This document shows, in pieces, positions 42,511 to 44,990 of a stretch of DNA of 64,000 nt. A program made the translations under genes and the position numbers. Position 1 is the stretch's first letter. Every line of letters begins with the position of its first letter. The notes beneath the pieces are model-generated. The model made no database searches and was not told the DNA's origin. It worked only from the letters and a program-made list of their open reading frames with translations. The DNA comes from Pelobium sp. (GTDB lineage Bacteria; Bacteroidota; Bacteroidia; Sphingobacteriales; Sphingobacteriaceae). The stretch is taken from NCBI GenBank assembly GCA_037968815.1, contig JBBKWF010000012.1, positions 20,384 through 84,383 on the forward strand, in the 5' to 3' direction.

Positions 42511-42810
42511 TTATTCGAATTTTAATTTATTAGGGTTTTGGCGTGTATCAAAAACCCTTAATATGTAAACTGTGTCAGCTGTATGAGAATATATCATACT
42601 ATTTTGTTTAGAAATAACACACTTCCTAACCTTTTGCTTTTTATAAATGATGGGATATAATTTGGGCGTTTTAGAAACTATGTTAACATGGTATTCAGTA
42701 TCTTTCAAGAATTTACTAGCGATTTCTAAACTCCATTCTGAAATTAGATAATTGATAATCATCGATAAATCGTTTTCAGATTCCGGTGACCATACAATAT
42801 TCCTAACCAT
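42511..42810 (-). CDS. RelE/ParE-family toxin
   Basis: 'IVWSPESENDL..I..YL..EW', 'P..YP', 'VRKCVI', 'YILRVFDTRQNP'. Confidence 0.85.
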   Translation of the reverse strand: MVRNIVWSPESENDLSMIINYLISEWSLEIASKFLKDTEYHVNIVSKTPKLYPIIYKKQKVRKCVISKQNSMIYSHTADTVYILRVFDTRQNPNKLKFE

Positions 42811-43036
42811 TTAGCAACTTATTCATTTTTAATATAACTTCTGAATGTGGGATACCTTTCCCAGCATTAATCGAATCAATCGCATCAAGAATCCCATCCC
42901 TCTGCGTTTCTGTGAGTCTATCCCATTCTTCTTCATCCGAAGAGGTATTAGAAATAGAAATTAGATTTAAGTCTGCCAAGTTTTGCAATAACTTTTTAGC
43001 TTTTGGATTAATGATTTCTATTGTTAACGATTCCAT
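42803..43036 (-). CDS. Putative antitoxin (addiction-module component)
   Basis: 77 aa with acidic middle, 'W..LTETQRDGI', 'GKGIPHSEV'; upstream of the toxin and overlapping it by 8 nt. Confidence 0.78.
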   Translation of the reverse strand: MESLTIEIINPKAKKLLQNLADLNLISISNTSSDEEEWDRLTETQRDGILDAIDSINAGKGIPHSEVILKMNKLLNG

Positions 43037-43053: not shown

Positions 43054-44199
43054 TTAAAGCCTTATTTCTATTTGCTGATTTTTTAATATTTGCTTCAATT
43101 CTGGGATTAATATCTCTCCATAATGGAATACAGAAGCTGCTAATGCTGCGTCTACATCCGTTTTTTGGAAAACGTCTATAAAGTCCTCACAACAACCAGC
43201 ACCACCAGAAGCGATAACAGGAATAGTAACCATATCGTTAATCTGTTTTAACAATATATTATCAAACCCTGATTTTGTACCGTCTTTATCCATTGAAGTC
43301 AATAGTATTTCCCCTGCACCACGTTCTTCCGCTTCTTTTATCCAGTGCTGTGTTTGCAGTTCTGTTGCTATTCTTCCGCCGTTAAGGTGTACAAAATCCC
43401 CATGAGGTAAATTCTTGGTATCAACAGCTAAAACCACAAACTGAACGCCAAATGCTTTAGCTAAGTCATCAATTAGTTTTGGGTTTCTCACTGCTGCAGA
43501 GTTGATGGAGATTTTATCCGCACCTGCATTTAGCAGAGCTTCTGCGTCTTTAAGTTCGCTAATTCCACCACCAATTGTAAAGGGAATATTGATTTGCCTT
43601 GCAACAGACTTTACCATTTCAATGGTGGTTTTCCGCTTTTCGTGAGTAGCAGTAATGTCTAAAAACACCAACTCATCTGCGCCTTGGTTTGAGTACTGCC
43701 AAGCTAATTCAACAGGGTCACCTGCATCACGTAAATCAACAAAATTGACTCCTTTTACAGTTCTACCATCTTTAACATCTAAACAAGGAATAATACGTTT
43801 TGCAAGGTGGCTTCCCCTAAATCCCCCAAGGGGGACTTCCATGTTTGACTTAATTGTATTTAACACTTTTTCTATATTTTGAAAGACATCTTTGTTTGCA
43901 AATCTTAGCACTTTTATGCCGAGATTTTCTAGATTCAATTGCCTTGTTCTGTCGTTTTTAAATACTTCTTGAAGCAGATGTATGCTTCCGTCTAATTCAA
44001 TTACTAACTTATGTTGATGGCAATAAAAATCAGCCACGTAATTTGAAATAGGATGTTGTCTTCTAAATCGACAACCTAACTGCTTTCCACTTAAATATCC
44101 CCATAATAATTTTTCTGCATCCGTTTCTCTAACTCTTAGTTCTTTTGCGTTCTTGAAAATTATCCCGTTAGCCCCAAAAAACATATTAGGTTTTTCCAT
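43054..44199 (-). CDS. hisF: DUF559 (Vsr-like nuclease)-HisF in-frame fusion; IGP synthase cyclase subunit
   Basis: Residues ~1-119 DUF559 ('FRRQHPI..YVADFYC...[10 protein letters not shown]', 'GIKVLRF.N'); linker [12 protein letters not shown]; then [19 protein letters not shown], a full HisF lacking Met1. Confidence 0.9.
43814..43838 (+). repeat. REP-like repeat B: CCCCTAAATCCCCCAAGGGGGACTT
   Basis: C-run plus TCCCCC-AA-GGGGGA palindrome; encodes the fusion linker on the minus strand. Confidence 0.8.
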
Positions 44200-44220
44200 T
44201 TTCTTTTGATTCAGGCGACA

Positions 44221-44240
44221 CCCCTTTAGGGGACCGGGGG
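44221..44240 (-). repeat. REP-like repeat A: CCCCCGGTCCCCTAAAGGGG
   Basis: C-run plus CCCC-TAAA-GGGG hairpin directly after the hisA stop; inverted relative to repeat B. Confidence 0.75.
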
Positions 44241-44990
44241 TTAAATTGTAGAAAGTCTGTGTAAGTTCCAGTTTTTGATTTCTTCAATAGAAATTCTTTT
44301 CTCATAGATGGCCTTACCAACTACACACGACTCTATTTTATGATTGTTTAACTCTTCAATATCTGCCATTGAGCTTACACCACCAGAAGCAATTAACTTG
44401 ATGAAAGGGGAGTGGCTTAACAGTTTTTCGTATAATTCAACACCTGCACCACCTAGCTTTCCATCTTTATTAATATCTGTACATAAAAAACGGAAAAAAC
44501 CTAAAGCAAGACATTTATCAACGTAATCCATCAGTTTGATTGGTGAGCTTTCCATCCAACCAGAGTATTTAATTACTTCGTCTAAAACATCAATTGCTAC
44601 AACAACTTGGTCAGAGCATTTGGTTTTATTACACATTTCTTTGCTAAGTTCTTCTAAGAAAGTAGGGTTAGTAATTGCTTGCGTACCTACAATAACGCGG
44701 TAAATACCCACGTCAATTAACTCTTTTACTTTGTCAATACTTCTTACTCCACCGCCATATTGTACTTTCATGTCGGTTTTTTTGATAATATCTGCAAGGT
44801 ATTTTTGGTTGCTGAAATCACCTTTTGCACCATTCAAATCTATGATATGAACAATTTCGGTACCGTTTGACTGGTACATTTCAATCTGTTCTTCTAATGA
44901 TACTTCGTAACGTGTTACTTGATTGTAATCGCCTTCAACTAAGCGGACAATTTTTTGGTCTAATACGTCAACAGCAGGGATAATATACAT
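44241..44990 (-). CDS. hisA: ProFAR isomerase
   Basis: 'IIPAVD', 'VRLVEG', 'HIIDLNGA', 'QYGGGVR', 'TDINKDG', 'ASGGV', 'GKAIY'. Confidence 0.95.

What the first reader, a model, noticed from the sequence alone, without database searches (positions are those of the whole stretch)
43054..44240. REP-flanked DUF559 nuclease cassette that has captured the start of hisF (nuclease-HisF fusion)
Seen: (i) a ~120-aa DUF559/Vsr-like domain with intact-looking D-F...E-x-D-G-x-x-H residues; (ii) two related GC-rich repeats (C-run + CCCC-loop-GGGG hairpin) in inverted orientation, one starting at the base after the hisA stop; (iii) no stop after the nuclease, with the inner repeat translated as linker EVPLGGFRG; (iv) HisF Met1 replaced by CAC (43809-43807), so HisF must be made as the 381-aa fusion or from ATG 43842 at the repeat edge. 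Knowledge: RAYT/REPtron loci have a nuclease between inverted REPs, but use HUH enzymes. Inference: an analogous transposase-free element built on a PD-(D/E)xK-type nuclease, which spreads its hairpin repeat and survives in operons by in-frame fusion to housekeeping genes. Best candidate here for an undescribed system.
Basis: partly seen in the sequence, partly recalled or inferred. Interest (0 to 1): 0.85.

Follow-up and report, generated by a model that had tools for sequence, protein, structure and literature searches.

The report
Nuclease cassette supplying hisF's start codon
A 434-base selfish-looking DNA cassette that encodes a small DNA-cutting enzyme sits between two histidine-synthesis genes of this Pedobacter, has replaced the start of the downstream gene hisF, and seems to supply that gene's new start codon; the same arrangement occurs patchily in many related soil bacteria and I found no description of it in print.

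Summary
ORF 43054-44199(-) is an intact DUF559 nuclease domain joined in frame to HisF. It is bounded by inverted C-run/hairpin ends, the outer one starting at the base after the hisA stop. CAC stands where HisF Met1 should be.

Comparison shows a discrete 434-bp cassette. Three other Pedobacter species have it at the same site and 24 relatives have an empty junction with a normal start codon. The four carriers are not a clade on the hisA+hisF tree. Cassette and flanks give conflicting trees. The nuclease evolves under purifying selection (dN/dS 0.10-0.17).

In about 7 of 49 carriers in the family the nuclease is broken by stops or frameshifts while hisF stays intact. The nearest relatives also sit in front of hisF, or of hisH, in Mucilaginibacter and other Sphingobacteriaceae.

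A start-capable GTG/TTG is conserved in the cassette's tail in 27 of 28 loci. HisF is therefore probably made from GTG 43866 and/or ATG 43842, and the 381-aa fusion is not required.

The nuclease resembles the homing endonuclease I-Bth0305I. A homing-type selfish cassette that captured the hisF start is the best reading. Nuclease-driven mobility and spread of the repeats remain untested.

The parts
44241..44990 (-). hisA; its stop TAA (44243-44241) abuts the cassette
   Evidence: ORF list. tblastn and alignment with relatives.
44221..44240 (-). Outer (left) cassette end, CCCCC-GGT-CCCC-TAAA-GGGG: a C-run followed by a hairpin
   Evidence: The same architecture directly follows the upstream gene's stop in 24 of 29 his-linked cassettes.
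43807..44240 (-). Whole cassette, 434 bp, missing as a block from 24 related genomes
   Evidence: Alignments A1 and A3. The right boundary is approximate: AAGCCAC at 43813-43807 may be remnant spacer.
43843..44199 (-). DUF559 (Vsr / I-Bth0305I-like) nuclease reading frame, ATG 44199 to the codon before ATG 43842; catalytic signature intact
   Evidence: Pfam. PDB 3HRL and 3R3P. AF2 model with Foldseek. dN/dS 0.10-0.17.
43864..43866 (-). In-frame GTG (the V of EKVL): candidate HisF start conserved across the lineage; would give a 270-aa HisF
   Evidence: GTG or TTG stands at this codon pair in 27 of 28 his-linked cassettes against 29 of 78 other DUF559 loci. The hisF frame stays open to here in broken carriers.
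43840..43842 (-). In-frame ATG at the edge of the inner end: second candidate HisF start, found only in the Pedobacter-type cassettes (the four species, Pedobacter sp. R20-19 and G410); would give a 262-aa HisF
   Evidence: Conserved in the four Pedobacter carriers, including P. cryophilus whose nuclease carries a TAA. An 8-bp RNA hairpin begins at +4.
43814..43834 (-). Inner (right) cassette end, CCCCC-TT-GGGGG-ATTTA-GGGG: a hairpin followed by a G-run, translated as PLGGFRG
43807..43809 (-). CAC at the position of the lost HisF start codon
   Evidence: Alignment with 24 empty sites that carry ATG, GTG or TTG there.
43054..43806 (-). hisF body from Leu2 to the stop; 92-94% identical in protein to close relatives
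   Evidence: TIGR00735 model positions 2-254.

Best explanation
Window 44240-43807 is a 434-bp selfish cassette. It carries one gene, a DUF559 nuclease of the Vsr / I-Bth0305I (EDxHD-like) fold. It ends in inverted 'C-run + GC hairpin' repeats of the BoxC/PIT intrastrand-triplex type.

It belongs to a lineage that lives in the intercistronic junction just 5' of his-operon genes in Sphingobacteriaceae. There it fills the spacer after the hisA stop and has removed hisF's own start codon.

hisF is now translated from start codons inside the cassette's 3' tail. These are the lineage-wide GTG/TTG (GTG 43866 here) and, in Pedobacter, also ATG 43842. This gives HisF an extension of roughly 11-20 residues. 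The 381-aa read-through fusion is possible but not required.

Because the host gene's start lies inside it, simple deletion of the cassette would leave hisF without any start codon. That helps the cassette persist.

Its evolutionary behaviour fits the homing-endonuclease life cycle of invasion, purifying selection while spreading, decay, then loss or replacement by an empty allele.

Shown: the anatomy, empty sites, patchy non-monophyletic distribution, discordant trees, purifying selection, decayed copies with intact hisF, and the conserved internal start codon.

Inferred: that the nuclease cuts empty junctions or the structured ends and so drives spread, and which start codon is used.
For: Anatomy and insertion:
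- Anatomy.
- Same insert in G013, G022 and G033, and 24 empty junctions with no trace of the repeats.

Distribution and history:
- The carriers are not one clade on the hisA+hisF tree (AU p 2e-42).
- Cassette data reject the flank tree and the reverse (p 1e-4 and 9e-12).
- Well-supported cassette clades are rejected by the flanks (p 6e-5 and 0.009).
- 49 of 401 family genomes in 8 of 37 genera carry it, always as a single copy. About 40 of them have open frames of about 378-431 aa.
- 523 protein clusters in public data match its nuclease part; the 120 best listed are nearly all DUF559+HisF fusions, and the NCBI-named ones are annotated plainly as HisF.

Selection and decay:
- dN/dS 0.10-0.17 with dS 0.6-1.7.
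- Stops or frameshifts in the nuclease, with hisF intact, in G013, G264, G192, G241, G112, G410 and G403.
- A 140-nt internal-deletion remnant at the hisF site in L068.

Other sites:
- Related copies sit at the hisB/hisH junction, nested within the hisF-type clade.
- A free-standing copy lies 3 nt before another gene's ATG.

Internal start:
- GTG/TTG present in 27 of 28 loci. TTG is 22 of 26 Leu codons at that site against 13% elsewhere in the same ORFs. GTG and TTA covary.

Nuclease family:
- Profile match to I-Bth0305I, PDB 3R3P, E 5.6e-5.
- Foldseek TM 0.76, probability 1.0.
- That enzyme is a proven homing endonuclease (PMC3239194).
Against: - No recent movement is seen. The four Pedobacter copies differ by 17-26% in nucleotides, as much as their flanks.
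- The two copies in one Mucilaginibacter operon are only 76% alike. Multi-copy genomes hold old copies.
- No target-site duplication and no clear co-conversion tract. Mosaic divergence also occurs between empty alleles, so ordinary recombination could explain gain and loss.
- The 119-aa protein lacks the extra DNA-binding region that I-Bth0305I has.
- The conserved structured ends are not needed by classical homing.
- A stable hairpin starts 4 nt after ATG 43842.
- The statistics on start codons and polarity treat related loci as independent.
- There are no RNA, protein or activity data.
Confidence: 0.62

Rival explanations
1. Obligatory fusion enzyme. HisF in this organism is made only as the 381-aa DUF559-HisF protein from ATG 44199. 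The nuclease domain is a fixed, perhaps functional, N-terminal part of the enzyme.
For: - There is no stop between the domains, and the frame is kept through indels in multiples of three in all four Pedobacter carriers.
- Most Mucilaginibacter copies have no internal ATG and remain in frame.
- Gene callers and NCBI annotate the fused ORF as HisF.
- A hairpin just after ATG 43842 should hinder initiation there.
Against: - hisF stays intact where the nuclease frame is broken by TAA or TGA (G013, G264, G192), by frameshifts (G112, G410, G241), or by a 290-nt deletion that leaves a TGA in the hisF frame (L068).
- In all of these the hisF frame reopens upstream of the conserved GTG/TTG.
- Native hisF in this genus commonly starts at GTG or TTG.
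Confidence: 0.12
2. Repeat-partner model (RAYT-like). The C-run/hairpin repeats are a genome-wide repeat family. DUF559 is their domesticated maintenance enzyme that happens to sit inside one repeat doublet. It is not a cassette that moves as a unit.
For: - Two nuclease-free doublets with the same ends exist in this genome, at C2:46.6 kb and C11:585.5 kb.
- Relatives hold 90-180 motif matches against 0-2 for the control pattern.
- In some genomes the gene is flanked by whole doublets, or by ends of the opposite polarity.
- Hairpin stems at the rpsB-tsf doublet were replaced in concert.
- The motif class is known and has no known protein partner (PMC4666352).
Against: - Empty hisA-hisF sites lack the repeats as well as the gene.
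- Polarity is nearly fixed in the his lineage: 24 of 24 upstream ends and 25 of 25 downstream ends.
- Repeat number does not follow gene presence. G032 has 29 matches and no DUF559. G004 has 180 and only a fragment. G000 has one gene and three loci.
- L068 shows a doublet-like remnant arising from a full cassette by internal deletion.
Confidence: 0.16
3. Passive relic. One ancient insertion in an ancestor of Sphingobacteriaceae, inherited vertically and lost many times through recombination with empty alleles. It is retained where present only because hisF now depends on its start codon, and the nuclease has no role in spread.
For: - Cassette divergence is as deep as flank divergence.
- Genus-level clades of the cassette match host genera.
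- Recombination mosaics are common at the locus.
- No recent copies were found.
Against: - Purifying selection on the nuclease with all catalytic residues kept is unexpected for a passenger.
- At least 6-7 independent precise losses, each restoring a start codon, would be needed within Pedobacter alone.
- Cassette and flank trees conflict.
- Related copies occupy other sites: hisH, a GH65-like gene, argB.
Confidence: 0.1

Closest known systems
EDxHD / Vsr-like homing endonucleases (I-Bth0305I, phage Hef; PMC3239194)
   Same: - Same nuclease fold. A profile of these cassettes matches PDB 3R3P at E 5.6e-5, and Foldseek gives TM 0.76.
- Presence/absence polymorphism at one conserved site next to a highly conserved coding motif ([12 protein letters not shown]).
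- Patchy distribution, discordant phylogeny and decaying copies.
   Different: - Not inside an intron or intein.
- Only about 119 aa, without the NUMOD/HTH DNA-binding region.
- Carries conserved structured inverted ends.
- Read in frame with the host gene and supplies its start codon.
- Cleavage of the empty site is untested.
BoxC / PIT / TM(ECO) intrastrand-triplex repeats (Holder et al. 2015, PMC4666352)
   Same: The ends have the same block order of C-block, loop, G-block, spacer, G-block. They also occur as inverted pairs.
   Different: - Blocks here are 4-5 nt, against about 8-10 nt in TMECO.
- TMECO is described as always intergenic, with no link to mobile elements and no protein partner named. 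The paper does not mention DUF559 or any endonuclease.
- Here the ends bracket a nuclease gene and one of them is translated.
REP / RAYT systems (REPtrons, REPINs)
   Same: A single-copy nuclease-type gene lies between inverted copies of a short GC-rich hairpin repeat. Nuclease-free doublets occur elsewhere in the genome.
   Different: - The enzyme is PD-(D/E)xK (DUF559), not a HUH Y1 transposase.
- This genome has only three repeat loci.
- The unit is an insertion polymorphism inside an operon and is fused to a gene.
- The genome's eight Y1_Tnp genes lie elsewhere.
Rickettsia palindromic elements and other MITEs read in frame; free-standing phage homing endonuclease genes (own knowledge)
   Same: Small selfish DNA that is tolerated inside or between essential genes. 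It persists because it does not destroy the host gene's function.
   Different: RPEs encode no enzyme. Phage free-standing homing endonuclease genes keep their own stop codon and do not replace the neighbour's start codon.

Membership tests
DUF559 (PF04480) | Match to the family HMM above the gathering score | tested here: met
   107.6 bits against a cut-off of 20.6, aa 16-120.
Vsr / EDxHD-type PD-(D/E)xK nucleases | Vsr-like fold | tested here: met
   AF2 model, pLDDT 88. Foldseek: 3HRL TM 0.83, 3R3P TM 0.76 with probability 1.0, 1VSR probability 0.91.
Vsr / EDxHD-type PD-(D/E)xK nucleases | Conserved acidic and histidine catalytic residues | tested here: met
   E29, D57, E68, D70, H74 and D83 are invariant in 19 relatives and present here. 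Their mapping onto the I-Bth0305I residues is by alignment only.
Homing endonuclease genes (functional class) | Gene present or absent at one defined site in otherwise collinear genomes | tested here: met
   4 filled and 24 empty hisA-hisF junctions.
Homing endonuclease genes (functional class) | Sporadic distribution and a phylogeny discordant with the host locus | tested here: met
   AU p 2e-42; p 1e-4 and 9e-12. Recombination at the locus is a confounder.
Homing endonuclease genes (functional class) | The enzyme cleaves the empty allele and is copied in by repair | not testable with these tools
   Needs a cleavage assay and a homing cross.
REP/RAYT (REPtron) | HUH Y1 transposase (PF01797) between the inverted repeats | tested here: not met
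   The gene between the repeats is DUF559. The Y1_Tnp genes of the genome lie elsewhere.
REP/RAYT (REPtron) | Repeat present in tens to hundreds of copies in the same genome | tested here: not met
   Three loci in G000. Some relatives have 90-180 pattern matches.
BoxC/PIT/TM intrastrand-triplex motif | Three consecutive triplex-forming blocks (C-block, G-block, G-block, or the complement) | tested here: inconclusive
   The block order is met at both ends, but blocks are only 4-5 nt against about 8-10 nt in TMECO.
BoxC/PIT/TM intrastrand-triplex motif | Forms an intrastrand triplex | not testable with these tools
   Needs CD or NMR spectroscopy or footprinting.
MITE / transposon with TIRs | Terminal inverted repeats plus target-site duplication | tested here: not met
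   The inverted ends are present. No duplication was found at the cassette or at the two doublets.
Intein / intron-borne element | Hint/splicing domain or intron RNA around the nuclease | tested here: not met
   Pfam finds only DUF559 and HisF-type domains. The cassette lies N-terminal, not internal. Rfam was not searched.
HisF (TIGR00735) | Equivalog model above its cut-off | tested here: met
   345.7 bits against a cut-off of 294.55, model positions 2-254.

The most novel reading that the evidence does not exclude
DUF559 cassettes are an undescribed class of bacterial mobile element.
- A minimal Vsr-fold nuclease recognises its own triplex/hairpin ends, the orphan BoxC/PIT/TM repeats.
- It inserts at or inside essential genes.
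- Its C/G-run ends encode Pro/Gly linkers in any reading frame.
- In the his lineage it makes itself hard to delete by carrying the host gene's only start codon ('start-codon capture').
- The nuclease would then also be the long-missing partner that multiplies and homogenises these repeats.
Probability: 0.22. Interest if true: 0.85.

Novelty: new variant of a known kind. Interest (0 to 1): 0.68.

Why it matters
**What it offers.** If the reading holds, this is a compact and testable example of a selfish nuclease gene that survives inside a biosynthetic operon. It does so without splicing itself out. Instead it becomes the translation start of the next gene.

**Why the system is tractable.**
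- Filled, decayed, deleted and empty states all exist among close relatives.
- Function can be read out by simple histidine prototrophy.

**Open questions it touches.**
- DUF559 is a very large protein family with no demonstrated function.
- The BoxC/PIT triplex repeats have had no protein partner since the 1990s.

**Practical point.** More than a hundred database entries annotated simply as 'HisF' of about 380 aa probably carry a mis-assigned start and a hidden nuclease gene.

Tried and rejected
- **Assembly error.** Rejected. Three other species share the structure and a Logan contig is identical.
- **Chance repeats.** Rejected.
- **Single ancestral gain with the carriers as one clade.** Rejected by the tree.
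- **Recent transfer among the four Pedobacter carriers.** Rejected. Their cassettes are as diverged as the flanks.
- **Recent bursts in multi-copy genomes.** Not found. The one 94%-identical pair extends into the flank, so it is probably a duplicated host gene or MAG redundancy.
- **Co-conversion tracts next to the junction.** Inconclusive. There is a modest rise for G033/G006, but similar peaks occur between empty alleles.
- **Target-site duplications.** None found.
- **Link between the rpsB-tsf doublet and DUF559 presence.** Not significant: 7 of 8 against 4 of 7 genomes.
- **Second DUF559 in this genome.** It is a canonical Vsr.
- **Alignment query for the search for related loci.** The single protein was used instead.
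- **RNA evidence.** No RNA runs hold this stretch.
- **hisA dN/dS.** Computed out of frame and discarded.
- **AAGCC at 43813-43809 as the old spacer (compare G034 AAAGCC-GTG).** This would place the insertion point differently from G033. It rests on a 5-nt match and was left as a weak observation.
Full report
**1. Observation**

The window is contig C12:20384-84383 of a 4.0-Mb, 35% G+C genome. Close relatives are Pedobacter.

On the minus strand the his operon reads hisH, hisA, then a 381-aa ORF (43054-44199), two small ORFs, then hisIE.

- The 381-aa ORF is DUF559 (PF04480, aa 16-120, E 4e-31) followed by HisF.
- The HisF model TIGR00735 gives 345.7 bits and matches model positions 2-254, so only Met1 is missing.
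- The hisA stop is at 44243-44241.
- The next base begins CCCCC-GGT-CCCC-TAAA-GGGG (44240-44221).
- At the other side of the nuclease lies CCCCC-TT-GGGGG-ATTTA-GGGG (43834-43814). It is the inverted counterpart and is read as PLGGFRG.
- CAC (43809-43807) stands where HisF Met1 belongs.
- A Logan contig from a sediment-metagenome run is identical over 43600-44400 at depth 188.

**2. It is a discrete insert**

Three other species of the genus have the same nuclease between hisA and hisF, in frame with hisF:

| Genome | Identity to this nuclease |
|---|---|
| G013 = P. cryophilus | 82% |
| G033 = P. psychrophilus | 72-74% |
| G022 | 69-70% |

Sources.

Twenty-four other genomes of the genus and family have an empty junction. 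It reads stop codon, 0-20 nt, then ATG/GTG/TTG-TTA-AGT-AAA-CGT, with no trace of either repeat. So the nuclease and both ends come and go as one block of about 434 bp.

This genome has no other DUF559. The second weak hit is a canonical Vsr.

It does have two nuclease-free doublets with the same ends:
- C2:46597-46710, between rpsB and tsf;
- C11:585463-585567.

**3. History**

*Distribution on the host tree.* On a hisA+hisF tree the four carriers are not a clade (AU p 2e-42).
- G033 is sister to the empty G006 (100/100).
- G000 sits among four empty species (99/99).

*Age.*
- The cassettes are as diverged as the flanks: nucleotide p-distance 0.17-0.26 against 0.17-0.23.
- Cassette dS is 0.6-1.7 against 1.1-2.6 for hisF.
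- Nothing moved recently among these four.

*Selection.* dN/dS of the nuclease is 0.10-0.17, so it is under purifying selection.

*Tree conflict across 22 hisF-site loci.*
- Cassette data reject the flank topology (p-AU 1e-4).
- Flank data reject the cassette topology (p-AU 9e-12).
- The well-supported cassette clades L084+L098+L088+L087 and G000+G013 are rejected by the flanks (p 6e-5 and 0.009). These groups were named after seeing the trees.

*Caveat.* Divergence along the locus is mosaic even between empty alleles. Ordinary recombination contributes, and active homing cannot be separated from allele exchange on these data.

**4. The lineage**

The nearest relatives in one genome per GTDB species (57-66% identity) are about 22 Mucilaginibacter and allied genomes plus Pedobacter sp. 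R20-19. In these the cassette again lies between the hisA stop and hisF codon 2, in frame.

- The left end follows the stop codon within 0-8 nt.
- The right end reads SSPFRG(R/S/P)GG-L-(A/S/T)-KRII.

*Other insertion sites.*
- Three genomes have the cassette at the hisB/hisH junction, fused to hisH. These copies nest inside the Mucilaginibacter hisF-type clade.
- M. phenanthrenivorans has both a hisH copy and a hisF copy, 76% identical in nucleotides.
- Its relative L068 keeps only a 140-nt internal-deletion remnant at hisF.
- L072 has a native ATG there.
- In G315 a 58%-identical cassette is free-standing. Its ORF ends at the TAG in the right hairpin loop, 3 nt before the ATG of a GH65-like gene.

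*Prevalence.*
- In an even sample of 401 family genomes, 49 (8 of 37 genera) carry a close relative.
- It is always a single copy.
- About 40 of the 49 have open frames of about 378-431 aa.
- Public protein collections hold 523 clusters (90% identity) whose DUF559 part matches this one. The 120 best listed are nearly all DUF559+HisF fusions of 373-432 aa, and the NCBI-named ones are annotated plainly as HisF.

*More distant relatives* sit in frame in argB, rimM, leuS, valS, metH, prmA and restriction-modification genes. Their flanks translate as Pro/Gly-rich strings. Within Pedobacter many species carry one inside leuS.

**5. How hisF is expressed**

The nuclease is broken while hisF stays intact in several carriers:

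| Genome | Defect in the nuclease |
|---|---|
| G013 | TAA |
| G264 | TGA |
| G192 | two TAA |
| G112, G410, G241, G403 | frameshifts (some may be homopolymer errors) |
| L068 | deletion, with a TGA in the hisF frame just upstream of the tail |

So HisF does not need translation through the nuclease.

In every case the hisF frame reopens upstream of the codon pair for the conserved Val-Leu of the last nuclease helix. That pair is GTG-TTA or GTH-TTG:
- in 27 of 28 his-linked loci, against 29 of 78 other DUF559 loci (Fisher p 1.7e-8);
- TTG is 22 of 26 Leu codons there, against 13% elsewhere in the same ORFs;
- whenever the second codon is not TTG, the first is GTG (5 of 5).

The loci are related, so these p-values overstate independence. 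However, synonymous sites are saturated and neighbouring Leu codons vary freely.

Native hisF in this genus usually starts at GTG or TTG.

I therefore propose that the cassette tail carries the hisF start:
- here GTG 43866-43864, giving a 270-aa HisF;
- the Pedobacter clade added ATG 43842-43840, giving 262 aa. That ATG is followed at +4 by an 8-bp hairpin.

The 381-aa fusion may also be made.

**6. The nuclease**

- By sequence, only PDB 3HRL (a structural-genomics 'endonuclease-like protein') matches directly.
- A profile of 19 cassettes also hits 3R3P, the catalytic domain of the homing endonuclease I-Bth0305I, at E 5.6e-5.
- A confident AF2 model (pLDDT 88) is closest to 3HRL (TM 0.83), then 3R3P (TM 0.76), then Vsr.
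- I-Bth0305I cuts the intron-less recA allele and has an additional N-terminal DNA-binding region (PMC3239194). This 119-aa protein lacks that region.

**7. The ends**

*Enrichment of the strict motif C4-N-C4-N-G4*:

| Loci | Within 130 nt of the DUF559 domain | 600 nt or more away |
|---|---|---|
| All 108 loci | 3.25 per kb | 0.11 per kb |
| Non-his loci | 2.2 per kb | 0.06 per kb |

*Polarity*.
- All 108 loci: upstream C-C-G in 41 of 45, downstream C-G-G in 37 of 41.
- his lineage: nearly absolute.
- Other loci: weaker. Some genes lie between whole doublets or between ends of reversed polarity.

*Copy number.* It ranges from 0 to about 180 pattern matches per genome in the genus, against 0-2 for the control pattern. 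It does not track DUF559 presence. G032 has 29 matches and no gene. G004 has 180 and only a fragment.

*Age of the doublets.* The rpsB-tsf doublet is orthologous in 8 of 15 species. Its hairpin stems have been swapped in concert for other palindromes.

*Relation to known repeats.* The block order matches the BoxC/PIT/TM intrastrand-triplex repeats. Holder et al. name no protein partner for them and do not mention DUF559 or any endonuclease (PMC4666352). The blocks here are shorter.

**8. Verdict**

- The best reading (confidence about 0.6) is a homing-type, nuclease-bearing cassette that captured the hisF start.
- Its discreteness, age, patchiness, selection, decay series and internal start codon are shown.
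- Nuclease-driven mobility and any role in spreading the repeats are inferred.
- It is not a REPtron. Its enzyme relates to a known homing-endonuclease family, but the in-frame, start-supplying lifestyle with structured ends is not described in the literature I could search.

Earlier notes of this scan report the same kind of cassette in other genes. I treated them as leads and re-derived the points used here.

Noticed in passing
window 42511-43036 (-): A ParE-family toxin gene (99 aa, PF05016, E 5.8e-6) and an overlapping 77-aa partner ORF sit between hisF and hisIE. They are present in G000, G022 and G033 and absent in P. cryophilus, where hisF and hisIE abut. This is a second selfish insert in the same operon.
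   Followed up: partly
G000 C2:46597-46710 and C11:585463-585567 (outside the window): Two nuclease-free doublets, about 105-115 bp each, carry the same C-run/hairpin ends as the cassette. One fills the rpsB-tsf spacer.
   Followed up: partly
L158-L171 (rpsB-tsf spacer in 14 Pedobacter genomes): The spacer exists in two exclusive forms. One is the doublet. The other is a long inverted repeat, GTGGGTTGTTAGC...GCTAACAACCCAT. In the doublet form the hairpin stems were replaced by other palindromes, at both ends in G023 and at the right end in G006 and G033, which hints at conversion from other copies.
   Followed up: no
L069 and L068 (Mucilaginibacter phenanthrenivorans and a relative): One operon carries two cassettes, one in front of hisH and one in front of hisF, 76% identical. 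The relative keeps only a 140-nt internal-deletion remnant at hisF, showing how a doublet-like element can arise from a full cassette.
   Followed up: yes
L175 (G315:C1:86100-87520): A close relative of the cassette is free-standing. Its ORF ends at the TAG in the right hairpin loop, 3 nt before the ATG of a GH65-like gene. A one-base frame difference separates the 'own stop' state from the 'fusion' state.
   Followed up: partly
L011-L013, L016-L018 and others (same genus): Many Pedobacter species carry a different DUF559 cassette in frame inside leuS, flanked by translated repeats (PPQPPEGG / PPSGAGG), sometimes several units in tandem. In G010 the leuS frame is interrupted just after the cassette.
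   Followed up: partly
L072 (hisA-hisF spacer): An unrelated insert of about 190 bp with terminal inverted repeats CGTCATTGCGAGG...CCTCGCAATGACG occupies the same spacer. A native ATG-CTA-AGT hisF start is retained.
   Followed up: no
G000 C22:212360-212863 (L002): A canonical 167-aa Vsr mismatch endonuclease gene is the only other Vsr-fold gene in the genome.
   Followed up: yes
L074 (Mucilaginibacter sp. SP1R1) and L096: Frameshifts in A- and G-homopolymers of the cassette put hisF out of frame with any start codon. They may be sequencing errors, or real length variation of the G-run.
   Followed up: no
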